A DNA stretch of 64,000 nt from a virus (lineage: Duplodnaviria; Heunggongvirae; Uroviricota; Caudoviricetes), in IMG/VR virus record IMGVR_UViG_2576861478_000002; one strand, 5' to 3'. Positions within the stretch are counted from its first letter, which is position 1. Every line of letters starts with the position of its first letter. The notes below the pieces were generated by a model. That model was not told the origin of the DNA. It saw only the letters and a list, made by a program, of their open reading frames with translations, and searched no databases. Made by a program: the position numbers and the translations under genes. Below, one piece after another: positions 1-63,641 of this stretch.

Positions 1-585
1 CTATAATAGTTCATCTTGTCCAAATAACTGATTTATAGCATTAGTAGAATCTTTTTTTCTTTTTAGTTCATTGAATTCAAAATCAATAACCCTAGATATT
101 CTTTCATAAAATTCGAGATATTCACGGCCGCTTAAAATAACATGTTCATTTGTTTCAGTGTCGGTTATTTGATTTGTACTAGTTGGACTTAAATTTAGGT
201 GATATTCTCCGTTAGTATTAAGAGTCTCCTTATGATAACCCAGACTTTCTAAGAAGCTTTCAAAGAAGTTTAGGTCATCTGAAAGTTTTAGTAGTCCTTT
301 AGCGGTTTTATCGTTAAATAAACTTGGCTCCTTTTCTAAAGCCTCTACACCTCTTTCAGCAATTTTCTGTTCTATTGCTTCATGATTTACAAATAAAAAA
401 GTATCCATAGGAACATTAAGTGCCTTAGCTATATTATTCAGTACTTCAAAGGAAATTTTTCTTTTGCCGTTTTCATATTGGGAAATTGCTTGTTGAGATA
501 CTCCTATCATTTCTCCTAATACAAATGCTGAAATTCCTTTCGCCTTTCGAATTTCTTTAATTACCTTACCTATGTTTTCTTGCAT
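1..585 (-). CDS. XRE-family HTH transcriptional repressor (candidate island master repressor)
   Basis: N-terminal HTH_3 motif (KAKGISAFVLGEMIGVSQQAISQYENGKR). No LexA-like S24 motif and no ImmA partner. Divergent from the + strand operon. Confidence 0.75.
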   Translation of the reverse strand: MQENIGKVIKEIRKAKGISAFVLGEMIGVSQQAISQYENGKRKISFEVLNNIAKALNVPMDTFLFVNHEAIEQKIAERGVEALEKEPSLFNDKTAKGLLKLSDDLNFFESFLESLGYHKETLNTNGEYHLNLSPTSTNQITDTETNEHVILSGREYLEFYERISRVIDFEFNELKRKKDSTNAINQLFGQDELL

Positions 586-1077: not shown

Positions 1078-1218
1078 GAAACTATGAAAATATAAAAAGC
1101 TACTAATATTTTGTTGGTCAGATGGTCTATTGCGGACCGAACATAAATGCAATGTTGGAAATGATAGCTGAAAAAAAGACGGTTGCAACGTCAAATTAAA
1201 AAAATGAGGTGAATACAT

Positions 1219-1365
1219 ATGAACGGAGTATTGTCTGCAACGAGGTTAATGAAGGCGCATGAAATTGTAAAACGATGTGCTGTAGCAAGAAAAAATCCTG
1301 AGATTTTAGAAGCTATGGAGTTTGAAGCTAAGAAAAGATTATACGAAATTAACAATAGTAAATAA
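1219..1365 (+). CDS. small hypothetical protein (48 aa)
   Basis: ATG preceded by a GAGGTGAA RBS; below the ORF-track length cutoff. Confidence 0.3.
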   Translation: MNGVLSATRLMKAHEIVKRCAVARKNPEILEAMEFEAKKRLYEINNSK

Positions 1366-1379
1366 GGAGCGTTAGAAAT

Positions 1380-1706: not shown

Positions 1707-1807
1707 AAAAAGATATATGAACTGCGAATTCATATATCCTCAAGAACAATTATTTATCTACTTATATTTTAACATTGAGTTCGTCTTGTGACAAGGGAGG
1801 TGAGAAG

Positions 1808-4237
1808 TTGTTATCTACAGCAGCGAATTATACAGAAGCAATTAACAACATAATGCCTGGAGCGAAAATTATTAAGCTTACTGGATATGCAAAGGGCAAT
1901 CAAGAGTATCAAAAAGCAAAAACACCAGTAGGTTCTTGGAAAGTCACGCATTCATTAGATAACGATCAAATTAATGGATGGCTTGGTCAAGGTGGCTGGA
2001 TAGGGTGTGTTGTTCCAAAAGGTATTTTCATTGTCGACATTGACGATTCTAAAGAAGGTCAGTTACTAAGAGAATTACTTGAAGGAGAAAACATTCATCA
2101 CCATTTAATTAAAACTCCTAATGGCTGGCAGTTTATATTCAAAGGCGAAACGGATTTAACGAAAAAAGAAGGTCAGTATCAGAATTACGTTAATCGTTTA
2201 GGGTTAACACAAGATACACGAGCAGTGGAAAAGGGTTATATCGTATTCCCGACCGAAAATACAGAAGGGCGTCATGTTGTAACTCAAAGTCTAGAAAAAT
2301 TGGACGAGCTTCCACAGTTCTTATATAAAGCATGGAATGGTGCGAAAACACCTTCACCTATGAGTTATCCATATGAAACTAACGGTTCACGTGATGGGGA
2401 TTTTTATGATTTAGCCAGAAGGTTATTAATTTGTAAGGTGAGCAAAAAGGAAGTATTGTCCAGTCTTAAATTGGCTCACAAATACTTTGTTTCCTTCAAA
2501 AAAGGGTTTCTTATTAAGGATATTACAAAGGTTGTTAATTCGGCCTATAAGAAGGTCAATGAAGGAAAAGCGGATGAGGGAATAACAAACGATAATGAGA
2601 AAAAACAAGAGGATTCTATCATTCCTGTAAATATTCCATCTCCTTACAAAGTTAAAAATAATGCTTTATATAGAGTGGAAACTAAGGTCAAGAATGGAGA
2701 ACTTGATGAACGGGAAATCATGGTTGCTAGGCATGTTCCGATTCTAAAAAGAGAACTACATAACGTTGAACGTCAACAATTATATTATGAGTTAACCTGG
2801 AATGATAGAGGGAAGGTCGTCACCGAGATTGTTCCAGCTGGAGCATTGGTCACTAAGAGGGAGATGATGCCATTAGCAGATAAAGGGTTTCCTTCAAATG
2901 ATAATAACATAAAGCAGTTAATAGATTACTTTGATAAGGTTTTAGCGTTTACCGAGATTGATAGAGGGCTGATGGTAGACCGTTTAGGTTATGTGAAAAG
3001 TGGTTTGGCCCATCCATTACTAGCAACAGATTATGAAATACTGCCTAATGATCAAGGAGAGCAGCAACTTTTTGAATCATTCCAAGTAGCTGGGACAGTC
3101 CAAGGGTGGATAGATGAAGTATTTAATCGTATTAAAGCCCATCCGAGAGCATTATTTTTTGTATTAGCATCCTTTGCTAGTGTACTGCTTCATGATTTAA
3201 AAATAGATCCTTTCATTGTGGATCTTTCTAGCGGAACTTCAAAAGGAAAAACAAGCGTATTAAAAGTTGCAGCCAGCGTGTGGGGGACAAGTGAACTTGT
3301 AAATGAATTTAACGCAACCAAAGTTAGTATTGAACGTAAAGCATCCTTCTTAAACAGTTTTCCTTTGTTAATGGATGATAGCCGTAAAGCGGATGAAAGA
3401 TTACTTCAATCCATTGTTTATAACTTCAGTGGAGGGAAGTCTAAAGGTAGGGGTTCTCTTAGTGGTTCGCAAAGAGAAAATACATGGAAAAATATCATGT
3501 TAACTACTGGAGAAGTAAGTCTAAATGAATATGCATCTAAAGCTGGGGGAGCTGCTGCTCGAATTGTGAGTTTAAATGATAGCCCATTTGAAGGAGTAGA
3601 TTATATATTCTTCGCTGATTTATATAAGGGGCTAGAAACAAATTATGGAGTAATTGGTTTAGAGTTTTTAAAACAGTACCAAGTACGTAAGAAGGAGTTG
3701 CTCCCATCTTTTTATAAATTTAAAGATTTTTATATGAATAAAGCACAGGGAAATGAGGTTTTAACAAGATTATCCCTTTATTATGCAACAGTCCATTATG
3801 CAGGTAGACTCCTAAAAGAATTTTTCAAGGTTAGTGTAGATCTTGAGCAACTGGACAAGCTTTTTGACGAAATTGCCCAAGAAAATAAAGCAATAGATAA
3901 ACCAAAAGAACTATTGAATGAAATTTTAACTTACTTGGATAGTAATAGGGATGGTATTTATTATGACTATGCTCCCAAAAATATCAAAGCAATTTATAAG
4001 TTTAGTTCAATTTGTTTAACACCATCTTTTTTAAAAGAGTTCTTAGGACCAGAAGAAAAAAGGACTAGAAAAGAGTGGTTGAAAAGGGGATTTACTGTTC
4101 CTAATGTTTTAGATGGGAAAGCAGTTGATTATCAAAAAATTAGCCATAAAGGGCGAAAAATCAATGCTGTAACTATAAATAAAGAGATTGTCCAACAATT
4201 AGGTTTTGATTTTGAAGAAAATCCACCTAATAACTAA
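1808..4237 (+). CDS. bifunctional primase-polymerase (prim-pol) N-domain + DUF927/D5-like NTPase replication protein
   Basis: Prim-pol catalytic block (GWIGCVVPKGIFIVDIDD). C-terminal P-loop-like SSGTSKGKTS plus a Walker-B-like LLMDDS. Start is probably the TTG at 1808 after GGGAGGTG (the ORF track gives 1775). Confidence 0.75.
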   Translation: MLSTAANYTEAINNIMPGAKIIKLTGYAKGNQEYQKAKTPVGSWKVTHSLDNDQINGWLGQGGWIGCVVPKGIFIVDIDDSKEGQLLRELLEGENIHHHLIKTPNGWQFIFKGETDLTKKEGQYQNYVNRLGLTQDTRAVEKGYIVFPTENTEGRHVVTQSLEKLDELPQFLYKAWNGAKTPSPMSYPYETNGSRDGDFYDLARRLLICKVSKKEVLSSLKLAHKYFVSFKKGFLIKDITKVVNSAYKKVNEGKADEGITNDNEKKQEDSIIPVNIPSPYKVKNNALYRVETKVKNGELDEREIMVARHVPILKRELHNVERQQLYYELTWNDRGKVVTEIVPAGALVTKREMMPLADKGFPSNDNNIKQLIDYFDKVLAFTEIDRGLMVDRLGYVKSGLAHPLLATDYEILPNDQGEQQLFESFQVAGTVQGWIDEVFNRIKAHPRALFFVLASFASVLLHDLKIDPFIVDLSSGTSKGKTSVLKVAASVWGTSELVNEFNATKVSIERKASFLNSFPLLMDDSRKADERLLQSIVYNFSGGKSKGRGSLSGSQRENTWKNIMLTTGEVSLNEYASKAGGAAARIVSLNDSPFEGVDYIFFADLYKGLETNYGVIGLEFLKQYQVRKKELLPSFYKFKDFYMNKAQGNEVLTRLSLYYATVHYAGRLLKEFFKVSVDLEQLDKLFDEIAQENKAIDKPKELLNEILTYLDSNRDGIYYDYAPKNIKAIYKFSSICLTPSFLKEFLGPEEKRTRKEWLKRGFTVPNVLDGKAVDYQKISHKGRKINAVTINKEIVQQLGFDFEENPPNN

Positions 4238-4560
4238 GGGGTACCAAGAGTACTAAGAAAATAAAGTTCATTTTATAGATTTGGTACTCCTAAAAACATT
4301 GATATAGCAAGTATTCAATACGAATAGTACTAAAAGTACCAAGAGTACTAAGAAAATAAATATATATTTTATAGAAAAAACTATTCATAACTTTTTTCTA
4401 TAAAACCCATATATATGTACTTTGAAAAAACGTGGTACTTTTGGAACTTTAAGAACTGAAGTGGAGAATATGTTGATATGACAATGTTTTTGCGGAAGTA
4501 CTAAATAAGAAATGCGCTGGAACTGTCTAGAACTCTTGGTACTAATCAAATGAATAAGGA
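4238..4560. repeat. iteron cluster; candidate replication origin of the island
   Basis: A 24 bp unit TACCAAGAGTACTAAGAAAATAAA repeated directly at ~4240 and ~4338. An inverted copy GAACTCTTGGTAC at 4538..4551. Further GTAC-core half sites. Located immediately 3' of the primase gene. Confidence 0.45.
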
Positions 4561-4796
4561 TGGTAGAAATGGCAATTAAAAAAATTCCAACCGTACTAGC
4601 AATTGAACGTGATAAAAAAGGAAATCTTAGTACATGGTGTCAATACTGTGGAAAGTTTCATCATCATGGAATAGGTGAAGGACATAGAGATGCACATTGT
4701 TTTGAGGAAGATAGTCCTTATATTCGTACAGGCTATATCCTTAAAAAGATGAAATTATCGGGTAAAGAGGTTGTGAGGATGGGGGAAACCTCATGA
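4560..4796 (+). CDS. small Cys/His-rich hypothetical protein
   Basis: CxxC ... HHH ... H ... C pattern; RBS present. Confidence 0.4.
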   Translation: MVEMAIKKIPTVLAIERDKKGNLSTWCQYCGKFHHHGIGEGHRDAHCFEEDSPYIRTGYILKKMKLSGKEVVRMGETS

Positions 4797-4945
4797 ATGA
4801 AATATTAGAACGATTGAAGGAACAATTAGAAATTCATCGTGATGATGAAAAGGTAATGGTAGATCGTTTAGACCTTATGAAGCTTATACAAGAATACGAA
4901 ATAGAGACAGGTAGAAAGAAAATATGGCTAGATGAGAGGTGGTGA
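4793..4945 (+). CDS. small hypothetical protein (50 aa)
   Basis: ATG overlaps the previous stop (ATGA); GGGGGA RBS. Confidence 0.3.
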   Translation: MNEILERLKEQLEIHRDDEKVMVDRLDLMKLIQEYEIETGRKKIWLDERW

Positions 4946-4949
4946 GTAA

Positions 4950-6146
4950 ATGGCGAGTTTTTTCAATAAAATTTTTAACCGTAAAAAAGAACTGCAGAAG
5001 ACAGAAAGAGCAGATGTTATGAGCGGTGGACCAGCAATATTTACACCTTTTAGCGGTAACGCTTATGAAAGTGATATTTATAGGGCGGCTGTGGATAGCA
5101 TAGCTAGAAATGCTGCAAAGCTAAAAGGAACGCATGTAATGACATCATCAGACCGTCGGAAAAAGGGTGATTATAATTTAAATCGGATTTTACAAGTAAG
5201 ACCGAACCCTTATATGACGGCATATGATCTTATTTATAAGTTGGTTACTCATTACTATCTTTACAATAATGCTTTTGCTTACTTAGAAAAGGACGACAAA
5301 GGTAATTTAGTTGCTATATATCCATTGTCACCTCAAAGTGTGGAATACCTCACCGATCTAACAGGTGAAATGTATTGTCGTTTCTTATTTGCGAATGGTC
5401 AACAAGTCACATTGCATTTTTCAGAGGTATTTATAGTAAGACGTTTCTTTAATTCTAATGATCTATTAGGTGATACCAATACAGCTATTTTGCCAGCGTT
5501 AGATTTGGCACATACGCAAAATGAAGGGTTGAGCAATGCAATAAAATCCAATGCAACTATTAGAGGTATCTTGAAATACAATCAAGTTTTATCACCTGAG
5601 AAGCTAAAAGAAGAAAAAGAAGCTTTCACCAATGATTACTTATCCATTGGCAACAATGGTGGAATCGCAGCAATAGACAATAAATATGACTATATCCCAC
5701 TAGAAACAAAGCCGACAACTATTGATGATAAGCAGCTTGAAGCGGTGAAAAAGAAAATCTATGAGTATTTGGGTATTAGTGAATCCATTGTGAATAGCAC
5801 TTATTCAGAGGAAGACTGGGCGGCGTTTTATGAAAGTGTATTAGAGCCTTTAGCAATTCAATTCTCTTTAGAATTGACGGACAAGCTTTTCACAGAGCGT
5901 GAGCAGTCCTTTGGGAATTCTATTATTTTTGAAGCGAATAGGTTGCAGTTTGCTAGTAATGAAACAAAAACAAACATCATTAAGGAATTAATGCCGTTAG
6001 GCTTATTCACAATAAATCAAGCATTAGAAATTTTAAACCTACCACCAGTTGAGGACGGTGACAAGCGACTACAAACATTAAATGTAGTTAATGCAGCAAA
6101 AGCCGATCAATATCAACTTAAAGAACAAGGGGGTAATAACCAATGA
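4950..6146 (+). CDS. phage portal protein (HK97 family)
   Basis: Homologous to the prophage-2 portal (29422..30645). Sits in the portal position before the protease and capsid genes. Confidence 0.85.
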   Translation: MASFFNKIFNRKKELQKTERADVMSGGPAIFTPFSGNAYESDIYRAAVDSIARNAAKLKGTHVMTSSDRRKKGDYNLNRILQVRPNPYMTAYDLIYKLVTHYYLYNNAFAYLEKDDKGNLVAIYPLSPQSVEYLTDLTGEMYCRFLFANGQQVTLHFSEVFIVRRFFNSNDLLGDTNTAILPALDLAHTQNEGLSNAIKSNATIRGILKYNQVLSPEKLKEEKEAFTNDYLSIGNNGGIAAIDNKYDYIPLETKPTTIDDKQLEAVKKKIYEYLGISESIVNSTYSEEDWAAFYESVLEPLAIQFSLELTDKLFTEREQSFGNSIIFEANRLQFASNETKTNIIKELMPLGLFTINQALEILNLPPVEDGDKRLQTLNVVNAAKADQYQLKEQGGNNQ

Positions 6147-6721
6147 AAGAATTGAGAGTAGCAGAACTAAGAGCAGCCGAGCCGGCAGGTGACAGCAGCC
6201 TTATTCTAAATGGTAGACCGATTGTGTACGATCAGCCTACCACCATAAAAGCACCATTTGGGGAATATATCGAGATTATTAAAAGGGGCGCATTAGATAA
6301 AGCTGATTTATCGGATATTCGCTTACTGTATAACCATGATATGAGTAAAATCCCTTTAGCAAGAACACCTAAAACAATGTCCTTTGCGTTAGATTCGGCA
6401 GGATTAACAATGAGGGCGGAATTACCAGAAACCGAAGAGGGAAAAAGCGTTTATACGGCAGTAAGGCGCCAAGACCTATCGGGAATGTCCTTTGCTTTTA
6501 AAGTACCAGAAGGCGGCAGCCAATTTGATGCAAAGACGAACACAAGAACAATAACCAAAATTGAAAAAGTCTATGAGTTTAGTATTTGTCCATTTCCTGC
6601 ATATCCTCAAACGAGTGTGGAGGCAAGGGCAGCTATTGAAAGTTCATGGGAAATGTTGAAATCAACAGAAAGACAAGCATTAAAAATAAAAATTAATCAA
6701 TTATTAATGAGGAGAGTGTAA
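6143..6721 (+). CDS. HK97-family prohead protease
   Basis: Paralog of 30602..31186; overlaps the portal stop (ATGA coupling). Confidence 0.85.
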   Translation: MKELRVAELRAAEPAGDSSLILNGRPIVYDQPTTIKAPFGEYIEIIKRGALDKADLSDIRLLYNHDMSKIPLARTPKTMSFALDSAGLTMRAELPETEEGKSVYTAVRRQDLSGMSFAFKVPEGGSQFDAKTNTRTITKIEKVYEFSICPFPAYPQTSVEARAAIESSWEMLKSTERQALKIKINQLLMRRV

Positions 6722-6725
6722 GAAT

Positions 6726-7988
6726 ATGAAATTCACTACAGTAGCAGAGGCATTTAATTTTTATCGTAATCATTCTTTAGCAGAAATGGAAACAAGAGCA
6801 GCACAAATTAAGGGTACAGTTGATACTGATCCAAATGCAGATATTACATCTATCAATATTGAAATCGAAGGGTTGCAACAAGCAATGAATAACAGTAAAG
6901 AAAAAGAAAAACAAGCACAACAAAGTCAAACTCAAACACCACCAGCAAACGAAGGAACGGCACAACGTAGCCAATTCAATCCGATTACTGGAATGAACTT
7001 TAACCAGGGGCAACAAGTACCAACAGAAAATATTTTTGGCAGCGCAGAATACCGCAGTGCATTCTATAAAACAATGCTAGGGCAAAAGCTTACAGATATT
7101 GAAACAAGAACATTTAACCGAGCGATGGAAATTCAAGAAGCGGAACACCGAGCGGATGCATTTAACACAACAACGAATAGTGCAGCTGTATTGCCTACAA
7201 CTACGTTAAATGAGGTTATCAAGAAAGCACGTACAATGGGCGGATTAATCTCACATTGCCGTAACTTTAATATCCCAACTAATATTAGTGTACCAATCGG
7301 AACACCTTCTAGTAAGGCACAATGGCATGTAGAAGGGGCGCCAGTAGAAAGTGAAAATGTTTCAACAGCAACTGTATCATTTAAAGGCTATGAGATCATT
7401 AAAGTATTTTCTATCAGTGCTGCAGCTAAGAAAATGTCTATCCAAGCATTTGAAGCATATATGACTGATGAACTTACTAATTGTGTAATGGAAGCTATTG
7501 CAGATGCTTTAGTGAATGGTACTGGAAGTGGTCAAGGTACAGGGCTGGTAACAGGTGTTACATGGAATGATACAAATAGCTTTGAAAATACAGGGAAGTA
7601 TACAGACTTTACAAAAGCATTGGCTATGCTTAAGCGAGGATATGCAGCAGGGGCAAAATGGGCTATGAGTAACGCTACACTATACAACGAAGTATATAGC
7701 CTTGTGGATGCAAACGGACGACCTATCTTTATTGCGGATCCAAAGAATGAAAGCATTGGATACATTCTAGGTAAAGAAGTAGTTATTGATGACAATATCG
7801 AGGACGACACTATTATTCTAGGAAACTTCCAGTACATGGGTTACAACATGCCGCAAGGTGTAATGATTGAAACATCAAGAGAATCAAGCTTTAAGAGTGG
7901 ATTAGTTGATTACCGAGCAATGGCAATTGCAGATACGAAACCACTTGTACCAGAAGCATTTATTAAACTATCTAAAAAGCAAGCATAA
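6726..7988 (+). CDS. major capsid protein (HK97 fold) with N-terminal delta/scaffold domain
   Basis: Coiled-coil N-terminus followed by a region homologous to the 31203..32387 capsid. Strong terminator downstream. Confidence 0.85.
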   Translation: MKFTTVAEAFNFYRNHSLAEMETRAAQIKGTVDTDPNADITSINIEIEGLQQAMNNSKEKEKQAQQSQTQTPPANEGTAQRSQFNPITGMNFNQGQQVPTENIFGSAEYRSAFYKTMLGQKLTDIETRTFNRAMEIQEAEHRADAFNTTTNSAAVLPTTTLNEVIKKARTMGGLISHCRNFNIPTNISVPIGTPSSKAQWHVEGAPVESENVSTATVSFKGYEIIKVFSISAAAKKMSIQAFEAYMTDELTNCVMEAIADALVNGTGSGQGTGLVTGVTWNDTNSFENTGKYTDFTKALAMLKRGYAAGAKWAMSNATLYNEVYSLVDANGRPIFIADPKNESIGYILGKEVVIDDNIEDDTIILGNFQYMGYNMPQGVMIETSRESSFKSGLVDYRAMAIADTKPLVPEAFIKLSKKQA

Positions 7989-8005
7989 GCAAACTAAGTA
8001 TGAAG

Positions 8006-8040
8006 GGGTATCAGTATAGCGCTGGTATCCCTTTTATTTA
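8006..8040 (+). terminator. rho-independent terminator after capsid gene
   Basis: GGGGTATCAG..CTGGTATCCC stem followed by TTTTATTT. Confidence 0.5.
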
Positions 8041-8054
8041 AAGGAGTGAGTAAA

Positions 8055-8342
8055 TTGTTAATTAGTATCGAGGAAGCAAGGGACACAGTAAGAGTAGATG
8101 GTGAAGACAATGACGTAATCATCATTCCGTTATTAGAATCTATTCCGTCTTATCTCGAGATAACAACAGGAAGAACATGGACAGATGATACATCAGTACA
8201 TCCATTAGCACAAACAGTAACAAAGTTTCTCTTACAGTTGTGGTATGACCCACAAGATCAGGATAGTGAACGATTAAAGCGAACAATCGACAATCTATTA
8301 GCGGCATTGACTGTATTAGGTAGGAATATGAAAAATGGCTAA
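8055..8342 (+). CDS. gp6-like head-tail connector protein
   Basis: Size, position and pattern match the gp6/DNA-packaging connector family. Paralog of 32657..32929. TTG start after AAAGGAGTGAG. Confidence 0.65.
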   Translation: MLISIEEARDTVRVDGEDNDVIIIPLLESIPSYLEITTGRTWTDDTSVHPLAQTVTKFLLQLWYDPQDQDSERLKRTIDNLLAALTVLGRNMKNG

Positions 8343-8625
8343 GGATTATGCAAAATCTTTTTATAACAGTGCAACATGGCGTAAATGTAAAGATGGATTC
8401 ATGCAAAGTAAGCACTATTTATGTGAAAGATGCGGTGATATAGCCGTTATATGCCATCATAAACGCTATATTACACCACAAAATATTAATAATCCCAATA
8501 TAACGTTGAGTTGGGACAATTTAGAGGCATTATGCCAAACGTGCCATAACCAAGAACATCATAGCAGCGAGATATGCGCAAATGGATTAGCATTCGATAG
8601 CAAAGGGAATTTGATTCAAAAATAA
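8335..8625 (+). CDS. HNH endonuclease (terminase-associated)
   Basis: CxxC ... HH ... N ... CxxCH motif set. Paralogs at 26556..26858 and 61165..61500. Positioned immediately before cos/terS. Confidence 0.85.
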   Translation: MAKDYAKSFYNSATWRKCKDGFMQSKHYLCERCGDIAVICHHKRYITPQNINNPNITLSWDNLEALCQTCHNQEHHSSEICANGLAFDSKGNLIQK

Positions 8626-8630
8626 AACAT

Positions 8631-8690
8631 ACCCCCCATTAATTTAAGAAAAAGGCATGGCTCGAGGACCGAGGAGGAGCCTTTCTTTTC
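8631..8690. other. candidate cos region (C-run + GC-rich GGACCGAGGAGGAGCC motif)
   Basis: GC-rich island in AT-rich DNA between HNH and terS. A similar motif is found upstream of terS in both prophages (27236..27290, 61517..61575). Confidence 0.35.
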
Positions 8691-8751
8691 CTCTCCATGA
8701 CTTTCTATATAAAGGGAGGGATGGAAAAAAACAAAAAATGAAGGTGATTAT

Positions 8752-9099
8752 ATGAGGACTTCTAAGAAAGTTACAGCGATTTCTAGTGATATGAAAAAAC
8801 TTAAAACGATATTAAGGCAGATTCCTAAAGAGCGTTTACCGATAGCGCAGAGTTTATATAACGAGCTTGTATTTATGCAAACTACTTTAGAGGCTTTAAA
8901 AACTCAAGTAAATGAAGAAGGACCGACAGCAATGTTTAAACAAGGTAGGCAAGAATTTTTAAGGGAACATCCAGCGTTAAAAGCCTATAACACAACTGTA
9001 CAGCGTTACAGTCTTTTGTATAAGCAATTAGTTGATTTATTACCGCCAACAGATTTAAAACCAAAAGAAGATGAACTAATTGACTTTATTAAGAGGTGA
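8752..9099 (+). CDS. terminase small subunit (P27 family)
   Basis: Resembles 27349..27711 and 61651..61986. Size and position immediately upstream of terL. Confidence 0.75.
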   Translation: MRTSKKVTAISSDMKKLKTILRQIPKERLPIAQSLYNELVFMQTTLEALKTQVNEEGPTAMFKQGRQEFLREHPALKAYNTTVQRYSLLYKQLVDLLPPTDLKPKEDELIDFIKR

Positions 9100-9103
9100 T
9101 AAC

Positions 9104-26555: not shown

Positions 26556-26858
26556 ATGGCTAAAGAATTTGCAAAGAAGTTTTATAAATCAACGGCATGG
26601 AAGAAATGTAGAAAGTCATATATAGCCTCAACATTAGATGGTATGTGTGAGCATTGCAAAGAAGTACCTGGATATATCGTTGACCATATAGTGGAGATTA
26701 CACCAGTAAATATAAACAATCCGGATATCATATTGAACCATGAGAACTTACAATACTTATGCTTAAAATGTCATAACACTAAGACATTTAGTAAGTACAG
26801 TCCGATGAGGGAAGATGTAATGTTTAATGAGAACGGTGAATTAATTAGGAGGGATTAG
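26556..26858 (+). CDS. HNH endonuclease (terminase-associated)
   Basis: Paralog of 8335..8625; CEHCKE...HNHENLQYLCLKCHN. Confidence 0.85.
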   Translation: MAKEFAKKFYKSTAWKKCRKSYIASTLDGMCEHCKEVPGYIVDHIVEITPVNINNPDIILNHENLQYLCLKCHNTKTFSKYSPMREDVMFNENGELIRRD

Positions 26859-26860: not shown

Positions 26861-27256
26861 ATGCAGTGTAATGGTAAGGTGTTAAATAAAGAACAAGTAG
26901 ACAAGATACAGTTCATGCTTAATAACTATTCTAATAAGGGAATGGATATTTGTACATGTGATGTAGAGCGGGTACTAAACAAACAATATATGAAACTAAC
27001 AAAGCTAGAGAAAGCTATTGCTCTTAGCATAGTCTTTAATGCTATTGATACCAAGGAACTAGATGGACATGTAAGTAAAGAAAAATTATCGGATGTACTT
27101 AAAGTAATTGAAGCGTTAAAAGAAGAGATAGATGCAGATAAAGAGTTAGAAGAAGAAAAAGAAGCGCATCTAAATATAATTAATAAACTAATTGATAGTT
27201 TATTAGCAGAAAAGAATCAGGAACAAAAAGAACCAAGCCCCCCCTTTCAAAAATAA
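26861..27256 (+). CDS. hypothetical protein
   Basis: ORF between HNH and terS. Confidence 0.45.
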   Translation: MQCNGKVLNKEQVDKIQFMLNNYSNKGMDICTCDVERVLNKQYMKLTKLEKAIALSIVFNAIDTKELDGHVSKEKLSDVLKVIEALKEEIDADKELEEEKEAHLNIINKLIDSLLAEKNQEQKEPSPPFQK

Positions 27257-27290
27257 ATCAAGGCCCCTTAGGGGGACCGAGAGGGGAGCT
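27236..27290. other. candidate cos region (C7 run + GGCCCCTTAGGGGGACCGAGAGGGGAGC)
   Basis: Same motif architecture as 8631..8690. Confidence 0.35.
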
Positions 27291-27348: not shown

Positions 27349-27711
27349 ATGAGCGATAATTTAGATATAGAAAAAGAAAAAAGAATTAAGCGAGAGATGA
27401 CACGATTAAACAGTTTATTAAAGAATTTAGAGCCTAAGAAAAAGAGAGCAGTTTCTTCACTCATAAAAAACGCTGCTTTTATGGCTGTCACTTTAGAAGA
27501 TCTGCAAGAAGATATTAATCAGAATGGTGTTACTGAACAATACCAAAACGGAGCAAATCAATTTGGAGTTAAAAAATCTTCAGCTGTTGAAGTATACAAC
27601 ACAATGATAAAAAATCATGTACAGGTAATGAAACAACTAACTGACTTGCTCCCGAAAGAACAGCCTAAAGAAGAGGATGATGGGTTTGAAGACTTCGTGA
27701 ATAGAAAATGA
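27349..27711 (+). CDS. terminase small subunit (P27 family)
   Basis: Family pattern; position before terL. Confidence 0.75.
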   Translation: MSDNLDIEKEKRIKREMTRLNSLLKNLEPKKKRAVSSLIKNAAFMAVTLEDLQEDINQNGVTEQYQNGANQFGVKKSSAVEVYNTMIKNHVQVMKQLTDLLPKEQPKEEDDGFEDFVNRK

Positions 27712-29408
27712 GTAAGCAAGTAAAAAAACAGTATCCGTTAACTTATAATCCAATCATTGAGTATTACAATCAAATCGAATCTGGACAAGTAATTGTATCC
27801 AGTAAAGTTAGGCGGATATATAAAAAGCTTGTAGATGATGTGCATGATACTTCCTCTGTATTTGAGTACGATGCAAATAAAGCGAATCACGTAATAGAAT
27901 TTATTGAGAATTTTTGCAAACACTCAAAAGGAAAATGGGGAGGTAAATCGATTGAATTAGAGCTTTGGCAAAAAGCATTTTTAGCAGCTTCTTTTGGATT
28001 TGTTCATAAAATTGATGGAACGAGAAAGTATAGAGAAGTACTCTTAATTGTGGCTCGTAAAAACGGAAAGTCAACAATCGCTTCTGGAATTGGTTTGTAT
28101 TTACAAGTTGCCGATGGTGAACCAGGTGCAGAAATATATGCAGTTGCTACTAAATTAGACCAAGCAAAATTAGTTTGGTTAGATGCCAAAAGGATGGTTA
28201 AGAAATCCCCCGTATTATTAAAACGAATTAAACCGCTTGTTCGTGAATTAAATGCAGATTTTAATGATAGTACGTTTAAACCTTTGGGAAGTGATTCAGA
28301 AACACTTGATGGTCTTAATGTTCATGGAGCGATGATGGATGAAATACATGCTTGGAAAGATAAGAATCTATATGACGTTATAGTGGATGGTACTTCTTCA
28401 AGGGAACAACCAATGATATTTATGATTACAACAGCTGGAACCATTCGTGAATCAGTTTATGATATGAAATATGAAGAAGCCGAAATGCTTTTAAATGGTT
28501 TGGACGATCCAGACGGCTATAAAGACGATCGCTTTTTACCAATCATATATGAGTTGGATAAAAGAGAGGAATGGACTGATAATACTAAATGGACAAAAGC
28601 TAATCCTGGTTTAGGTACGATAAAAAAGATAGACCAACTTGAAACAAAGGTAAACAAAGCGAAAGCAAATTCTTTGCTAGTTAAGAACTTACTAACAAAA
28701 GATTTTAATATCCGCGAAACAAGTACAGAAGCCTGGTTAACATTTGAACAATTAAATAACAAGGCTACCTTTGATGTAGCAAAATTAAAGCCTTCTTATG
28801 GGATTGGCGGTTGTGATTTATCTTCAACAACTGATTTAACCGCAGCGAAGGTTATTTTTATGCTTCCAAACGATCCGCATGTCTATGTATTACAAATGTA
28901 TTGGCTTCCTGAAGATTTGCTTGAACAAAGAAGTAAAGAAGATAAGATTCCATATAATTTATGGGCAGAACAAGGAATATTGAGAACAACACCAGGTAAT
29001 TCAGTTCATTATAAATTTGTAACACAATGGTTCTTAGAAGTCAGGGATGAACTCGGTATTTATATTCCGTGGATCGGTTATGATAGATGGTCCGCAAAAT
29101 ATTGGGTGGAGGAAATGGAAGGCTACTTTGGTAAAGAAGCAATGATTCCAGTTGCCCAAGGGAAACAAACTCTTTCTAGCCCTATGAAATTATTAGGAGC
29201 AGATTTAGAGTCTAATTTAGTAAATTACAACAATAATAGCATTGATAAATGGTGCTTATCGAATACAGCCATTGATGTGGATAAAAACCTGAATATACAG
29301 CCGAACAAAACAAATAATCAACGTAGAAGGATTGACGGAACCGCAGCGCTTTTAAATGCATATGTTGTGCTTCAAGAAAAACGTAATGATTACTTAAATA
29401 TGATTTGA
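27708..29408 (+). CDS. terminase large subunit
   Basis: Paralog of 9104..10744. Confidence 0.9.
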   Translation: MSKQVKKQYPLTYNPIIEYYNQIESGQVIVSSKVRRIYKKLVDDVHDTSSVFEYDANKANHVIEFIENFCKHSKGKWGGKSIELELWQKAFLAASFGFVHKIDGTRKYREVLLIVARKNGKSTIASGIGLYLQVADGEPGAEIYAVATKLDQAKLVWLDAKRMVKKSPVLLKRIKPLVRELNADFNDSTFKPLGSDSETLDGLNVHGAMMDEIHAWKDKNLYDVIVDGTSSREQPMIFMITTAGTIRESVYDMKYEEAEMLLNGLDDPDGYKDDRFLPIIYELDKREEWTDNTKWTKANPGLGTIKKIDQLETKVNKAKANSLLVKNLLTKDFNIRETSTEAWLTFEQLNNKATFDVAKLKPSYGIGGCDLSSTTDLTAAKVIFMLPNDPHVYVLQMYWLPEDLLEQRSKEDKIPYNLWAEQGILRTTPGNSVHYKFVTQWFLEVRDELGIYIPWIGYDRWSAKYWVEEMEGYFGKEAMIPVAQGKQTLSSPMKLLGADLESNLVNYNNNSIDKWCLSNTAIDVDKNLNIQPNKTNNQRRRIDGTAALLNAYVVLQEKRNDYLNMI

Positions 29409-60763: not shown

Positions 60764-61168
60764 ATGTGTAATGTTTCTAGATGTTGTTTAGCTTGTGACT
60801 ATCAAATTAAAACTTATCAAGCGCCAGAAGATGAATATCAAGAAGTAACTGTTTGTCCGAAATGTAATGGTGCGTTTGTAGATATGTTTAAGTTAGAGAA
60901 GTACAAACAATCTAACGAGACTGTAGAACCTTTATTAACAATTACATTAACAGATATAGATGCTAAACCTATAGTTCATTACAAAGGTAAACAGATAGAT
61001 AGAAAGTTACGTGTTGCATTTGATTGGGAATCACAATCGATTGATAGGATTAATCGGACATACATTCATATTGAACATGTACCAGCTGATAATAAGCAAT
61101 TCAATACTGAAGTTATTCAGCACAATCATCCTATTGTGGAAGACCAAGTGGAGCTTTATCGGTTATGA
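60764..61168 (+). CDS. hypothetical zinc-ribbon protein
   Basis: CCLACDY..CPKCNG. Confidence 0.4.
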   Translation: MCNVSRCCLACDYQIKTYQAPEDEYQEVTVCPKCNGAFVDMFKLEKYKQSNETVEPLLTITLTDIDAKPIVHYKGKQIDRKLRVAFDWESQSIDRINRTYIHIEHVPADNKQFNTEVIQHNHPIVEDQVELYRL

Positions 61169-61500
61169 AAGAATACAAAACCAAACAACAGAAGCGTAAG
61201 TTCTATGACAGGGGTGAGTGGAAGAGTATACGAGAGCAAGTAAAGAAGAGAGACAACTATGAGTGCCAAGAGTGTAAACGTAACGGTCGAGTACAAACAG
61301 ATACCAATGAGTACAGTGAGAGTGCAAAGCGTAAGAAGATACAGCTCGTCGTCCATCATAAAAAAGAACTAGAACATCATCCAGAACTCGCATTGGAAAT
61401 AGACAATCTTGAAACAGTCTGTGTGGATTGCCATAATAAAGAACACGGTAGAACATTCGAAAAGAAACCGAATAAATGGGAAAACGATGAAAAGTGGTAA
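61165..61500 (+). CDS. HNH endonuclease (terminase-associated)
   Basis: CQECKRNG...HHKKELEHH...CVDCHNKEH. Confidence 0.85.
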   Translation: MKEYKTKQQKRKFYDRGEWKSIREQVKKRDNYECQECKRNGRVQTDTNEYSESAKRKKIQLVVHHKKELEHHPELALEIDNLETVCVDCHNKEHGRTFEKKPNKWENDEKW

Positions 61501-61516: not shown

Positions 61517-61575
61517 ATCCCCCCCTTAAAATATTTCAATCTTTTTCGGGGAACGAGGCACCGGGGAGGGGGTCG
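61517..61575. other. candidate cos region (C7 run + CGGGGAACGAGGCACCGGGGAGGGGGTCG)
   Basis: Same architecture as the other two elements. Confidence 0.3.
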
Positions 61576-61650: not shown

Positions 61651-61986
61651 GTGGCTAGAGGGAAGCGTGAAACAATGAGAAAAAGGATTGAAAAGGATCT
61701 AACAAATCAATTAAAAGAAAAAAAGATTGTAGGTAATCATTATACTGACTTAATTCAAGACTATTTATCGTTGTGGGATTTAAAGTGTGTTCTTGTTGAT
61801 GATATTGAAGAAACAGGAATAAAAGTATCTGGCATGCATGGTCCGAAATCCAATCCTTCTATTAATGATTTACATAAAACAAATGATCGAATGATAAAGA
61901 TTTTAGATGCACTTGGATTAGAAGCATCGGCAGAAGAAAAGAAAGTTCCTTCAAAACCTGTGCGCTCAGTTAAAGATTTAACATGA
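61651..61986 (+). CDS. terminase small subunit (P27 family)
   Basis: Family pattern. Confidence 0.75.
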   Translation: MARGKRETMRKRIEKDLTNQLKEKKIVGNHYTDLIQDYLSLWDLKCVLVDDIEETGIKVSGMHGPKSNPSINDLHKTNDRMIKILDALGLEASAEEKKVPSKPVRSVKDLT

Positions 61987-63641
61987 TTCAAAATAATTAT
62001 GTCACTGAATATATTGAGATGTATCGCGCAGGGAAAATTAAGCTGAATAAAGAGCGCATAATGCTAATTGAGTACCTGGAGAAATACATTTTAATACGCG
62101 ATGATTTGTATTTCGATAATGAAATGCATGAGGACTATATAAAATTCACTGAGAAATGGTACTTTGAATTGCAAGCATTTCAAAAGTTCCTAACAGCATT
62201 CGTTTTTCTTTTCTATAAAGAAGATGATTCTGTTTTTTACGAGCAATTTTTAATTATGATGGCTCGTGGTGGTGGTAAAAACGGTTTAATTTCATCATTA
62301 TGCCATTTCTTTATTAGTCCGCTGCACGGAATAGATCGATACAATGTTTCAATTGTGGCGAACAACGAGAAACAGGCCAAAGTTTCTTTTCGTGAAGTCT
62401 ATGATGCTATTAAAGGAAAAGAAATACTAGAAGATATGTTTTATCGAACCAAGGTAGAGATACTGAGTAACGATACGCAAAGCATTATTCAATATCATAC
62501 ATCTAATGCTGGTTCTAAGGATGGACTTCGTGACGGTTGTGTTATTTACGATGAAATACATCGATATGAAAACTTTGATGTAGTAAATGTATTCTCTAGT
62601 GGACTTGGAAAAGTGCCAAATGCTAGAGAATTTTTTATTGGTACAGATGGCTTTGTCCGCGATGGATTCCTGGACAAAACAAAAGAGCGGGCGATGAATA
62701 TTCTAAAGGGGAAAGATTTAGAAGATCCATTATTCCCTTTCATTTGCAAGATAGATAATCCAGAAGAAATTGATAATCCTGATGTATGGGAAAAAGCGAA
62801 TCCGATGTTTAGCGAGCCGAGAAGTTCTTATGCTAAACAATTATTTAAAAAGGTATTAACTCAATATAAACAATTAGAAAATAATCCTTCAAACCGTGAA
62901 GAATTCATAACAAAACGTATGAATTATCCTGAAACAGATTTAACAAAGTCTGTAGCTTCATGGGAAGAAATCATGCGTACTGGTTTTGAAGAAGATGGGG
63001 AAACGCTCAGAGAGGTTCCAGATTTAAAACATAAAGTAGCTGTAGGCGGACTCGACTTCGCCAGCATTAAAGACTTTGCTGCGGTTGGTCTACTCTTTAA
63101 ACATGGTGAAGATTATATATGGAAAGGTCATTCATTTGTACGTAAAGGATTTTTGGACAAGGTGAAATTAAAAGCACCTATATATGAATGGGCTGAAAAT
63201 GGCTTACTAACTATTGTGGATGAACCAGTTATTAATATCTCTCACATTGTAGATTGGTTTGTAAAAATGCGTGAGTTATACGGTGTTAATACGATTGTAG
63301 CCGATACATTCCGCCTTGATCTTGTCAAAACGGCACTTGAAGCTGAAGGATTTATATTGTTGTATATCCGTAATCCAAAGGCAATACATTCTCTTTTAGC
63401 ACCAAGAGTTGAAACGTTGTTTGCAAACAATCGCATTATTTTTGGAGATAATCCATTGATGCGTTGGTACACTAACAACGTCTACGTCCACATCAAAAAA
63501 GACGGCAACAAAGAGTATCTGAAAAAAGATGAATTTAAGCGTAAAACAGATGGATTTCAAGCTTTTATTCATGCGCTATGGCAAGCGGATAACATTCTTG
63601 TGGATGAATTCGACTTTATGCTAGATGGTATTAAATTCTAA
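61983..63641 (+). CDS. terminase large subunit
   Basis: Paralog of the other two terL genes. Confidence 0.9.
   Translation: MIQNNYVTEYIEMYRAGKIKLNKERIMLIEYLEKYILIRDDLYFDNEMHEDYIKFTEKWYFELQAFQKFLTAFVFLFYKEDDSVFYEQFLIMMARGGGKNGLISSLCHFFISPLHGIDRYNVSIVANNEKQAKVSFREVYDAIKGKEILEDMFYRTKVEILSNDTQSIIQYHTSNAGSKDGLRDGCVIYDEIHRYENFDVVNVFSSGLGKVPNAREFFIGTDGFVRDGFLDKTKERAMNILKGKDLEDPLFPFICKIDNPEEIDNPDVWEKANPMFSEPRSSYAKQLFKKVLTQYKQLENNPSNREEFITKRMNYPETDLTKSVASWEEIMRTGFEEDGETLREVPDLKHKVAVGGLDFASIKDFAAVGLLFKHGEDYIWKGHSFVRKGFLDKVKLKAPIYEWAENGLLTIVDEPVINISHIVDWFVKMRELYGVNTIVADTFRLDLVKTALEAEGFILLYIRNPKAIHSLLAPRVETLFANNRIIFGDNPLMRWYTNNVYVHIKKDGNKEYLKKDEFKRKTDGFQAFIHALWQADNILVDEFDFMLDGIKF

What the first reader, a model, noticed from the sequence alone, without database searches (positions are those of the whole stretch)
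8631..8690. Shared GC-rich cos-like motif upstream of terS in all three elements
Between each HNH gene and terS lies a run of 6-7 C, followed 20-30 nt later by a GC-rich block. The blocks are GGACCGAGGAGGAGCC (island, 8659..8681), GGACCGAGAGGGGAGC (prophage 2, 27262..27289) and GAACGAGGCACCGGGGAGGGGG (prophage 3, 61547..61575). These are the expected positions of cohesive-end sites for HNH-dependent HK97-like terminases. Their similarity raises the question of whether the island packages itself with its own terminase at a related but distinct cos, or can be cross-packaged.
Basis: seen in the sequence. Interest (0 to 1): 0.5.

Follow-up and report, generated by a model that had tools for sequence, protein, structure and literature searches.

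The report
Cos packaging sites of three phage elements
The three C-run plus GC-block motifs are the DNA-cutting (cos) sites where two prophages and a small capsid-encoding satellite island have their genomes cut for packaging; this is a known kind of site, and one of the three matches a published phage's ends exactly.

Summary
The window has only three runs of six or more C, on either strand. Each lies 20-30 nt upstream of one of its five most GC-rich 24-mers, just upstream of a terS-terL pair.

The cos interpretation is supported.
- **Prophage 2:** its block contains, base for base, the published 14-nt 3' cohesive end of Bacillus phage B13 (GGACCGAGAGGGGA, window 27274-27287).
- **Prophage 3:** the GenBank ends of phage PHBA67-J fall at 61561|61562, inside the block.
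- **Island:** it is a capsid-forming PICI-type satellite with its own HNH, TerS and TerL (TerL 50% identical to prophage 2's). Its site keeps B13's register. The layout is conserved across about 30 diverged relatives, and three metagenomic contigs of relatives end exactly at the predicted nicks.

The same layout occurs at annotated cos ends of Listeria PSA, Psychrobacillus Spoks and Staphylococcus phiSLT: a C5-7 run, a 32-39 bp spacer, a CG-led purine-rich overhang, then T-rich and G-rich boxes.

One correction: in prophage 2 a 131-aa ORF sits between HNH and the site, and the C-run lies inside that ORF.

Cross-packaging between island and prophage 2 is unresolved. This is an ordinary feature, correctly read, in a mildly interesting setting.

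The parts
8335..8625 (+). Island HNH endonuclease gene, last gene before the site
   Evidence: Pfam HNH PF01844, 28.6 bits. It is 39% identical to prophage 2 HNH.
8632..8637 (+). Island C6 run, upstream flank of cos. It would sit about 30 bp from the right end of the packaged genome.
   Evidence: One of only three C>=6 runs in the window. Invariant or near-invariant columns in 32 relatives. 39 of 51 unique core+box sites have a C5+ run 25-29 nt upstream, against a background of 0.15 runs per kb.
8666..8679 (+). Island predicted cohesive-end segment (cosN). It reads GGACCGAGGAGGAG in the B13 register. The overhang could instead be only CGAGGAGGAG (8670-8679) in the PSA/Spoks register. The near-invariant core ACCG is at 8668-8671.
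   Evidence: 10 of 14 positions match the B13 overhang, with the same spacing from the C-run. The ACCG core is 90-100% conserved. Right nick 8679|8680: contigs L036 and L029 start at this aligned position. Left nick in the AC|CG register: contig L179 ends there.
8680..8720 (+). Island conserved downstream boxes, candidate TerS-binding (cosB-like) region: CTTTCTTTTCCTCTCCATG (8681-8699), TTTCTATA (8702-8709), GGGAGGG (8714-8720).
   Evidence: Near-invariant columns in alignment A2. TTTCTATA sits at +23..+30 from the right nick in both the island and prophage 2. By analogy, HK97 TerS binds +15..+29 downstream of cos cleavage (PMC11331095). The two C-rich/G-rich boxes show no covariation beyond shuffles.
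8752..10744 (+). Island terS (8752-9099) and terL (9080-10744)
   Evidence: TerS: PHROG 1066 and a weak small-terminase PHROG; 32% identical to prophage 2 TerS. TerL: PF03354 + PF20441; 50% identical to prophage 2 TerL.
26556..26858 (+). Prophage 2 HNH endonuclease gene, separated from cos by the 131-aa ORF 26861-27256
   Evidence: Pfam HNH 24.1 bits. The B13 homologue is annotated HNH endonuclease.
27238..27244 (+). Prophage 2 C7 run, inside the 3' end of ORF 26861-27256
   Evidence: The identical run is present at the right end of the B13 record.
27274..27287 (+). Prophage 2 cos cohesive-end sequence GGACCGAGAGGGGA (3' overhang)
   Evidence: Identical to the feature '3'-cos overhang sequence' at 1..14 of B13 OP066531.2, whose base 1 aligns to window 27274. 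PhageTerm plus restriction evidence is in PMC9610010.
27310..27327 (+). Prophage 2 downstream boxes TTTCTATA + GGGGGTGTGG
   Evidence: Same offset from the right nick as in the island. Similar boxes occur in L116 and L117.
27349..29408 (+). Prophage 2 terS (27349-27711) and terL (27708-29408)
   Evidence: Pfam Terminase_4 (weak) and PF03354 + PF20441. B13 annotation.
61165..61500 (+). Prophage 3 HNH endonuclease gene
   Evidence: Pfam HNH 34.7 bits.
61519..61525 (+). Prophage 3 C7 run
   Evidence: PHBA67-J has C6 at the same place, followed by a spacer of different sequence but the same 36-nt length.
61562..61572 (+). Prophage 3 predicted cohesive-end segment CGGGGAGGGGG. The left boundary is supported; the length of 10-11 nt is inferred.
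   Evidence: The PHBA67-J record termini join at GGCAC|CGG, which is 61561|61562. The register and composition match Spoks CGGTAGGGGGA and PSA CGGGGGAGAG, both annotated as 3' overhangs.
61651..63641 (+). Prophage 3 terS (61651-61986) and terL (61983-63641)
   Evidence: Pfam Terminase_4 33.9 bits; PF03354 + PF20441. TerS relatives include PSA and phiCD6356 TerS.

Best explanation
Each motif is the cos site of a packaging module built from an HNH endonuclease, a small terminase (TerS) and an HK97-type large terminase (TerL).

**Proposed mechanism**
1. Concatemeric DNA is recognised by TerS at the conserved T-rich and G-rich boxes between the GC block and terS. This step is inferred by analogy with HK97.
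2. TerL, helped by HNH, makes two staggered nicks in the purine-rich GC block. This leaves a 10-14-nt 3' overhang that starts at or just before a conserved (A/C)CG. It is supported by PhageTerm and restriction data for B13 (prophage 2), is suggested by record ends for prophage 3, and is inferred for the island.
3. DNA is then packaged rightward from terS. The C-run ends up about 30-40 bp inside the right end of the packaged genome.
4. The C-run's constant distance, constant strand and variable surrounding sequence suggest a flanking cos subsite used when the motor arrives at the terminal cos, positionally like lambda cosQ. This role is inference only.

**The island**
The island is a capsid-forming PICI-type satellite. 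It most likely cuts and packages its own DNA at its own site using its own HNH, TerS and TerL. That site is a diverged homologue of the cos of the neighbouring B13-like prophage.
For: **Non-random occurrence**
- The three sites hold the only three C>=6 runs in the window, next to three of the five most GC-rich 24-mers. The pattern is expected 0 times by chance.

**Direct matches to phage ends**
- B13 base 1 aligns to window 27274, and its 14-nt overhang is identical to the window sequence. The ends rest on PhageTerm and a HindIII annealed-end fragment (PMC9610010).
- The PHBA67-J record ends fall at 61561|61562.

**Same layout at other annotated cos ends**
- Listeria PSA: C6, 38 nt, then CGGGGGAGAG.
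- Psychrobacillus Spoks: C5, 39 nt, then CGGTAGGGGGA.
- Staphylococcus phiSLT: C6, 34 nt, then CCGGAGAGGC, annotated 'cos'.
- A spacer table for nine of these elements is; phiSLT was measured.

**Island-specific evidence**
- TerL is 50%, TerS 32%, HNH 39% and portal 36% identical to prophage 2's proteins.
- 32 relatives conserve the C-run, a length-fixed but sequence-variable spacer, the ACCG core and the downstream boxes.
- 39 of 51 unique sites chosen without reference to the C-run have a C5+ run 25-29 nt upstream. About 0.4 would be expected.
- Contigs L036 and L029 begin exactly after the predicted overhang. Contig L179 ends exactly before it. This is what blunt-ended virion DNA with 3' overhangs would give.

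**Satellite identity**
- The island has a primase/helicase, portal, protease, major capsid protein, Ad1 adaptor, HNH, TerS, TerL and Hc1 head-closure protein, and no tail genes.
- This gene order matches the one reported for Bacillus, Clostridium and Staphylococcus cf-PICIs (bioRxiv 10.1101/2022.09.08.507074).
Against: - No virion DNA data exist for this island or any close relative. The contig-end evidence comes from relatives whose TerS is only about 50-60% identical, and contig ends can arise for other reasons.
- The island region has no DNA match in the phage collection.
- A metagenome scan for the island's downstream box found 32 loci, none ending at the site.
- The left nick position is ambiguous by 4 nt between the B13 register and the PSA/Spoks register.
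- How the PHBA67-J record ends were determined is unknown, and no paper was found.
- The roles assigned to the C-run and the downstream boxes are positional analogies, not tested.
Confidence: 0.88

Rival explanations
1. The island's site works mainly as a mimic of the helper phage's cos. On this view the B13-like prophage's terminase cuts and packages the island, or the island's terminase cuts the prophage, as in cos-type SaPIs such as SaPIbov5 or in P4, which carry the helper's cos.
For: - The island and prophage 2 share the C-run, nearly the same spacer length (32 vs 33 nt to the CG) and the first 8 nt of the overhang (GGACCGAG; 10 of 14 overall).
- They also share a TTTCTATA + G-rich box at the same +23..+30 offset.
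- The two elements sit on either side of guaA in the same chromosome.
- Satellites that carry a helper cos are documented (PMC5052747).
Against: - The island encodes a complete HNH-TerS-TerL set, unlike SaPIbov5-type islands.
- Its TerS is only 32% identical to the prophage's.
- 4 of 14 overhang positions differ, as does the +1..+22 region.
- The island-type site travels with island-type TerS across many relatives from varied sources.
- In the prototype cf-PICI, phage and satellite packaging were mutually exclusive.
Confidence: 0.12
2. The C-run and GC block are transcript-level signals rather than DNA cutting sites. Examples would be a terminator or attenuator between HNH and terS, or a structured 5' leader controlling terS translation.
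For: - The GC block is followed by a T-rich stretch in the island (GAGCCTTTCTTTT).
- The downstream C-rich box (CCTCTCC) and G-rich box (GGGAGGG) can pair in 85% of alignment cells.
- In PSA and Spoks the G-rich box doubles as the terS ribosome-binding site.
Against: - No + strand terminator-like site was found at any of the three places.
- No Rfam family matched there.
- Pairing of the two boxes is no better than in shuffled or slid controls: 85.1% observed against 85.5% shuffled, with covariation equal to the shuffles.
- Phage genome ends map precisely inside the blocks.
Confidence: 0.03
3. The elements package by a headful (pac) mechanism, and the motif is only a pac-like initiation site.
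For: None specific. The terminase type alone does not prove the mechanism.
Against: - All three TerLs are of the PF03354/PF20441 type. The B13 paper places the B13 TerL with those of the 3'-cos phages HK97, HK022 and 16-3.
- B13 gives fixed termini and an annealed end fragment.
- PSA, Spoks and phiSLT records carry defined cohesive ends at the same motif.
Confidence: 0.02

Closest known systems
cos site of Bacillus phage B13 (Bunatrivirus; OP066531.2; PMC9610010)
   Same: The prophage 2 site matches B13's closely: the 14-nt overhang GGACCGAGAGGGGA is identical, as are the C7 run and the flanks, apart from two substitutions in the immediate flanks shown. The terS side is 97.9% identical. The structural module is 89.6% identical over 69% of the query. 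The island site keeps B13's spacing and the first 8 nt of the overhang.
   Different: The island differs from B13 at 4 of 14 overhang positions and in the +1..+22 flank. It belongs to a tail-less 12-13-kb satellite, not a phage. Prophage 3 has a different TerS lineage, a longer spacer (36 nt) and probably a shorter overhang.
cos sites of HNH-dependent 3'-cos phages of Bacillota: Staphylococcus phiSLT/phi12, Listeria PSA, Psychrobacillus Spoks
   Same: They share the layout: a C5-7 run on the terS-sense strand, a 34-39-nt spacer, a purine-rich 10-11-nt 3' overhang starting (C)CG, then a T-rich stretch and a G-rich box before terS. The HNH gene is at or near the other genome end. Prophage 3's TerS is 34-37% identical to those of PSA and phiCD6356.
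   Different: The sequences of the spacers and overhangs differ. The island and B13 use a shorter spacer (32-33 nt to the CG) and, by PhageTerm, a longer overhang (14 nt).
HK97 cos and terminase (gp1 TerS, gp2 TerL, gp74 HNH)
   Same: HK97 has the same TerL Pfam families, HNH-stimulated cleavage and a 10-nt 3' overhang. Its TerS site lies 15-29 bp downstream of the cut. The HK97 record also ends ...GAC+CGCCGCCAAA, with a G9 run 42 nt before the end.
   Different: HK97 is a Gram-negative phage with no detectable DNA similarity to these sites. Its homopolymer run is G, not C, on the terS-sense strand. Its TerS is not detectably related to the island's.
Capsid-forming PICIs (cf-PICIs; prototype EcCIEDL933)
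   Same: The island has the PICI-type regulatory and replication genes plus portal, protease, capsid, connectors and HNH-TerS-TerL, and no tail genes. Its gene order is the one described for Bacillus, Clostridium and Staphylococcus cf-PICIs.
   Different: No Bacillus cf-PICI cos site or helper came up in the papers I searched. Induction, tail hijacking and exclusive packaging are untested here.
lambda cos (cosQ-cosN-cosB)
   Same: The order of subsites is the same relative to packaging direction: an upstream flanking element (the C-run, compared with cosQ), a nicking site, then a downstream terminase-binding region next to the small terminase gene.
   Different: Lambda makes 5' overhangs, has no HNH, and its TerS and sites are unrelated. 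The cosQ-like role of the C-run is only a positional analogy.

Membership tests
3'-cos site of an HNH + TerS + HK97-type TerL packaging module | Lies immediately upstream of terS-terL, at the junction with the distal end of the genome where the HNH gene sits | tested here: met
   The island and prophage 3 have HNH, then the site, then terS. Prophage 2 has HNH, a 131-aa ORF, the site, then terS.
3'-cos site of an HNH + TerS + HK97-type TerL packaging module | TerL of the Terminase_1 type (PF03354 ATPase + PF20441 nuclease) | tested here: met
   All three TerLs match both domains, with E-values from 1e-11 to 1e-39.
3'-cos site of an HNH + TerS + HK97-type TerL packaging module | Virion DNA has fixed ends with a 3' single-stranded extension that map to the site | tested here: inconclusive
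   - Prophage 2: met through B13 (identical overhang; PhageTerm plus restriction).
- Prophage 3: the PHBA67-J record ends lie inside the block, but the method is unknown.
- Island: only contig ends of relatives L029, L036 and L179. There are no virion data.
3'-cos site of an HNH + TerS + HK97-type TerL packaging module | Cleavage depends on TerS, TerL and HNH | not testable with these tools
   This needs genetics or in vitro cleavage. It is known for HK97 and phiSLT/phi12 from the literature.
Capsid-forming PICI (cf-PICI) | Encodes capsid-forming and packaging proteins (portal, protease, major capsid, connectors, HNH, TerS, TerL) but no tail or lysis genes | tested here: met
   PHROG and Pfam hits for 4950-11090. 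The next features to the right are a purine riboswitch and guaA.
Capsid-forming PICI (cf-PICI) | PICI-type left arm: integrase, divergent repressor, small HTH/excisionase-like gene, primase-replicase | tested here: inconclusive
   An HTH_3 repressor-like ORF at 1-585(-), an HTH_17 ORF at 808-1077 and a primase/helicase at 1775-4237 were found. The integrase and att sites would lie left of the window and were not seen.
Capsid-forming PICI (cf-PICI) | Gene order of the Bacillus/Clostridium/Staphylococcus group: portal-protease-capsid first in the operon | tested here: met
   The order is portal 4950, protease 6143, capsid 6726, Ad1 8046, HNH 8335, terS 8752, terL 9080, Hc1 10761. This is compared with the description.
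Capsid-forming PICI (cf-PICI) | Helper-phage induction, use of helper tails, exclusive self-packaging into small capsids | not testable with these tools
   No helper could be inferred. The island's connector proteins have no tblastn hit in prophages 2 or 3.
Helper-cos-carrying satellite (SaPIbov5 / P4 type) | Carries the helper's cos and relies on the helper's terminase, with no terminase of its own | tested here: not met
   The island has its own HNH, TerS and TerL. Its overhang segment differs from the neighbouring prophage's at 4 of 14 positions.
Intrinsic terminator or known structured RNA | GC-rich hairpin plus T-run on the coding strand, or a match to an Rfam family | tested here: not met
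   No + strand terminator-like site. No Rfam hit at the sites. No covariation in the candidate helix.

The most novel reading that the evidence does not exclude
The C-run may be a distinct functional cos subsite, shared by HNH-dependent 3'-cos phages and capsid-forming satellites across Bacillota. It is strand-specific and sits at a fixed distance of 32-39 bp upstream of the cut, with a spacer of free sequence. It would be read by a conserved partner (TerL, HNH or the stalled motor) rather than by the fast-diverging TerS, for example as a termination or pausing signal like lambda cosQ.

A corollary concerns this window. The island and the adjacent B13-like prophage share this subsite and half of the cohesive end. 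Their specificity would then rest only on the TerS-proximal flank, leaving room for partial cross-cutting or interference.
Probability: 0.3. Interest if true: 0.5.

Novelty: new member of a known kind. Interest (0 to 1): 0.3.

Why it matters
**Annotation.** The result fixes the genome ends of two B. cereus-group prophages and of a widespread satellite island. The island's exact TerS is indexed in 468 blocks of the assembly collection.

**Testable predictions.** It gives predicted nick positions that run-off sequencing of induced particles could check directly.

**Biology.** A cf-PICI-type satellite lies next to a prophage whose cos is a diverged homologue of the satellite's. That makes a convenient natural pair for asking how satellites keep packaging specificity apart from phages.

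**Wider use.** The C-run / fixed spacer / CG-purine layout could serve as a sequence signature for locating cos sites in Bacillota phages and satellites. If functional, it could identify a termination-type subsite in HK97-like systems.

None of this changes current understanding of cos packaging.

Tried and rejected
1. **DNA search of the island site (8100-9300) against 50,697 phage records:** no match. No phage end could be transferred directly to the island.
2. **IMG/VR scan with island HNH,** looking for contigs that stop at the left nick: 47 loci, none ending there.
3. **Metagenome scan for the island's downstream box CTTTCTTTTCCYCTCCATG:** 32 loci, none with a contig end at the motif.
4. 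**Exact-protein look-up of island TerS:** only chromosomal copies were shown, which says nothing about ends.
5. **Hairpin between CCTCTCC and GGGAGGG:** pairing and covariation were no better than shuffled or slid controls. Rejected as a supported structure.
6. **Terminator and promoter scans and Rfam:** nothing at the sites.
7. **Helper inference from connector proteins:** no similarity between the island's Ad1, Hc1 or 69-aa proteins and prophages 2 or 3.
8. **Literature:**
   - No paper on PHBA67-J was found.
   - Quiles-Puchalt 2014 (PMC4000808) is not held.
   - Searches for a described C-run in cos sites found nothing relevant. I cannot say whether it has been described elsewhere.
9. **Records not opened at cos:** iA2 and PK5.2 start after HNH or at the terS ribosome-binding site. 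They show the motif internally but give no nick positions.

Full report
**1. The observation**

| Element | C-run | GC block |
|---|---|---|
| Island | C6, 8632-8637 | GGACCGAGGAGGAGCC, 8666-8681 |
| Prophage 2 | C7, 27238-27244 | GGACCGAGAGGGGAGC, 27274-27289 |
| Prophage 3 | C7, 61519-61525 | GAACGAGGCACCGGGGAGGGGG, 61551-61572 |

The window is 35.6% GC. These are its only runs of six or more C, and there are no runs of six or more G. The 24-mers holding the blocks rank 1st, 3rd and 5th for GC content. The pattern CCCCCC-N20-40-GGACCGAG is expected 0.00 times in shuffles, and it hits the island and prophage 2.

Each site lies just upstream of a small ORF followed by a large terminase with PF03354 and PF20441 domains. 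HNH genes lie upstream.

One correction is needed. In prophage 2 the ORF next to the site (26861-27256) is a protein of unknown function. The HNH gene is the one before it, 26556-26858. The C-run lies within the last codons of the 131-aa ORF.

In related elements the C-run is sometimes intergenic and sometimes inside the end of the HNH gene. It is therefore kept as DNA sequence, not as coding sequence.

**2. Prophage 2 is B13-like, and its block contains a published cohesive end**

A search of the phage collection shows that the linear record of Bacillus phage B13 (OP066531.2) begins at window 27274. It continues at 97.9% identity through terS. The structural module matches over B13 1-19131 at 89.6% identity.

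The record annotates bases 1-14 as '3'-cos overhang sequence'. Those bases are GGACCGAGAGGGGA, identical to window 27274-27287. The record's other end carries the same C7 run and spacer.

The B13 paper derived this end with PhageTerm. It supported the result with a HindIII fragment formed by the annealed end fragments, and it placed the TerL with HK97-type 3'-cos terminases (PMC9610010).

**3. Prophage 3**

Phage PHBA67-J (PP858851.1) is 98.9% identical on the terS side. Its record ends join as ...GGGGCAC|CGGAGGAGGGGGTCG. That places a terminus at window 61561|61562, inside the block.

The 36-nt spacer between the C-run and this point differs in sequence between the two phages but not in length. 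No paper on PHBA67-J was found, so how its ends were set is unknown.

The register is the same as in two phages whose 3' overhangs are annotated:
- Listeria PSA: C6, 38 nt, then CGGGGGAGAG.
- Psychrobacillus Spoks: C5, 39 nt, then CGGTAGGGGGA, annotated at both ends.

Prophage 3's TerS is 34-37% identical to the TerS of PSA and phiCD6356. I therefore predict a 10-11-nt overhang, CGGGGAGGGG(G), at 61562-61572.

**4. What the island is**

The island's ORFs match the following:

| Coordinates | Match |
|---|---|
| 1-585 (-) | HTH repressor-like protein |
| 808-1077 | HTH_17 protein |
| 1775-4237 | primase/helicase |
| 4950-6146 | portal |
| 6143-6721 | head maturation protease |
| 6726-7988 | major head protein |
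| 8046-8342 | Ad1 head-tail adaptor |
| 8335-8625 | HNH |
| 8752-9099 | TerS |
| 9080-10744 | TerL |
| 10761-11090 | Hc1 head closure protein |

There are no tail or lysis genes. To the right come a purine riboswitch (11766-11867) and GMP synthase (12023-13570).

This is the gene content of a capsid-forming PICI. The order, portal-protease-capsid first, is the one reported for Bacillus, Clostridium and Staphylococcus members (bioRxiv 10.1101/2022.09.08.507074). The integrase would lie left of the window.

The island's packaging proteins are homologous to prophage 2's but diverged: TerL 50%, HNH 39%, portal 36% and TerS 32% identical. They are much further from prophage 3's (TerL 23%, TerS with no hit).

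**5. Evidence that the island motif is its cos**

There is no phage DNA match. The case rests on three independent lines.

*(a) Register.*
- The island has C6, 28 nt, then GGACCGAGGAGGAG. B13 has C7, 29 nt, then GGACCGAGAGGGGA. The two segments agree at 10 of 14 positions.
- A TTTCTATA + G-rich box follows at the same +23..+30 offset from the right nick in both.

*(b) Conservation.*
- IMG/VR scans with island TerS and HNH returned 116 loci, many from 11-15-kb contigs.
- In 32 distinct relatives, the following are conserved: the C-run, a spacer of fixed length and free sequence, the ACCG core (window 8668-8671), CCyCTCCATG, a TAT-containing stretch and a GGGrGG box. The rest varies.
- I picked sites by core plus downstream box only. 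Of 51 unique sites, 39 have a C5+ run 25-29 nt upstream. The background is 0.15 such runs per kb.

*(c) Physical ends.*
- Contig L036 begins exactly at CCTTTCTTTTCC. Its relative L037 reads ...GACCGGCGCGGGTA|CCTTTCTTTTCC.
- Contig L029 ends exactly at CCTCTGAAAACC. Its relative L033 reads ...ACCACGTGCCCA|CCTCTGAAAACC.
- Contig L179 ends at ...CCCCGGAGAC|, just before the CG at which its relatives continue.
- For DNA with 3' overhangs that has been blunted for library preparation, the left end should start right after the overhang. The right end should stop right before it. That is what these three contigs show.

These three contigs come from relatives with roughly 50-60% TerS identity, not from this island. 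The right nick (8679|8680) is the better-supported boundary. The left nick is either 8665|8666 (B13 register) or 8669|8670 (PSA/Spoks register).

**6. A general layout**

The same arrangement is present at the annotated cos of Staphylococcus phage phiSLT. This is the phage group in which HNH-dependent cos packaging of SaPIbov5 was described. It reads C6, 34 nt, then CCGGAGAGGC, followed by TTTTTCATGAAAGGGGG and terS.

The arrangement also occurs internally in Geobacillus PK5.2, C. difficile phiCD6356 and Lactobacillus iA2.

There are two spacing classes, measured from the C-run to the CG:
- 32-33 nt: island, B13, iA2.
- 35-39 nt: prophage 3, PHBA67-J, PSA, Spoks, PK5.2, phiCD6356, phiSLT.

The three motifs in the window therefore resemble each other because they belong to one broad family of cos sites. 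The island and prophage 2 are the closer pair.

**7. How it most likely works**

- *Supported by published mapping (PhageTerm and restriction analysis):* the staggered cut in the purine-rich block, for B13 and hence prophage 2.
- *Inferred by homology and position:* the same cut for the island and prophage 3.
- *Inferred by analogy with HK97:* TerS binding in the conserved boxes between the cut and terS. In HK97, TerS binds +15..+29 downstream of the cut, stalls the incoming motor, and gp74 HNH stimulates cleavage (PMC11331095 and PMC9410871).
- *Inference only:* the function of the C-run. It lies about 30-40 bp inside the right genome end, on a constant strand and at a constant distance, across lineages whose TerS proteins are not detectably related. 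That points to a flanking subsite read by a conserved component or by the arriving motor. It is positionally like lambda cosQ.

**8. Rivals**

*Transcript-level element.* This is not supported.
- There are no + strand terminators and no Rfam match.
- The C-rich/G-rich box pair shows no covariation beyond controls.

*Headful packaging.* This is unlikely given the TerL type and the fixed ends in B13, PSA, Spoks and phiSLT.

*Cross-packaging.* This is the live question.
- The island and the neighbouring prophage share the C-run, half the cohesive end and a downstream box.
- They differ in the rest of the overhang, in the +1..+22 flank and in TerS.
- The island's full HNH-TerS-TerL set argues for self-packaging.
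- So does the co-inheritance of island-type site and island-type TerS.
- So does the mutually exclusive packaging reported for the prototype cf-PICI.
- Partial cross-cutting cannot be excluded from sequence.

**9. Novelty and verdict**

- The prophage 2 site is already published as the B13 cos.
- The prophage 3 site and the island site are new members of a known kind.
- I did not find the conserved C-run and fixed spacer described in the papers I could search. That is weak evidence of novelty, because key papers are not held.
- Interest is modest. This is a correct and useful annotation with a testable side question, not a surprise.

Noticed in passing
window 1-11400: The 'island' is a capsid-forming PICI-type satellite. 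It has a repressor-like HTH, an HTH_17 protein, a primase/helicase, portal, protease, major capsid, Ad1 adaptor, HNH, TerS, TerL and Hc1, and no tail genes. Its exact TerS sequence is indexed in 468 blocks of the assembly collection, including multi-megabase chromosomes.
   Followed up: partly
window 11766-13570 and 13636-14733: A purine riboswitch (Rfam RF00167, 84 bits) precedes GMP synthase guaA (12023-13570). The satellite lies just upstream of this unit. The tyrosine integrase of prophage 2 (13636-14733, minus strand) lies just after guaA's 3' end, so two mobile elements flank one housekeeping gene.
   Followed up: no
window 46591-48362: A group II intron sits inside prophage 2, between the tail genes and the lysis region. 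The evidence is Rfam D1-D4 and domain V/VI matches, plus a reverse transcriptase/maturase ORF at 47007-48281. The window segment 27274-49574 is about 3.2 kb longer than the matching B13 segment 1-19131, which fits an insertion absent from B13 but was not checked directly.
   Followed up: partly
L244 (HK97 NC_002167 39200-39732) and L246: The HK97 record ends ...GGCAGGGGGGGGGATC-N-ATGAC CGCCGCCAAA. It has a G9 run 42 nt before the end and a GAC|CG-like junction 10 nt before the end. This resembles the Bacillota layout, but with the homopolymer on the opposite strand. The overhang sequence itself was not verified.
   Followed up: partly
L060, L062, L064, L065, L067, L071, L072, L179 (IMG/VR loci): A more distant clade of TerS relatives (47-50% identity, GC-richer metagenomes) keeps the GGGA(A/C)CGGCG core. 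It has GGGGTAGGGGGG, a G-run, about 30 nt upstream instead of a C-run.
   Followed up: no
window 8714-8751: In PSA and Spoks the G-rich box downstream of cos is the terS ribosome-binding site. In the island family the same box (GGGAGGG, 8714-8720) lies 30-60 nt upstream of terS, which has its own GAAGGTGA site. In this window the box is followed by a 6-codon mini-ORF (ATGGAAAAAAACAAAAAATGA) that is not conserved in relatives.
   Followed up: partly
window 61526-61561 vs PHBA67-J (L004 1-40): Between two phages that are about 99% identical in the flanking genes, the 36-nt spacer between the C-run and the cut is heavily diverged in sequence but identical in length. The same pattern is seen across the island family.
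   Followed up: partly
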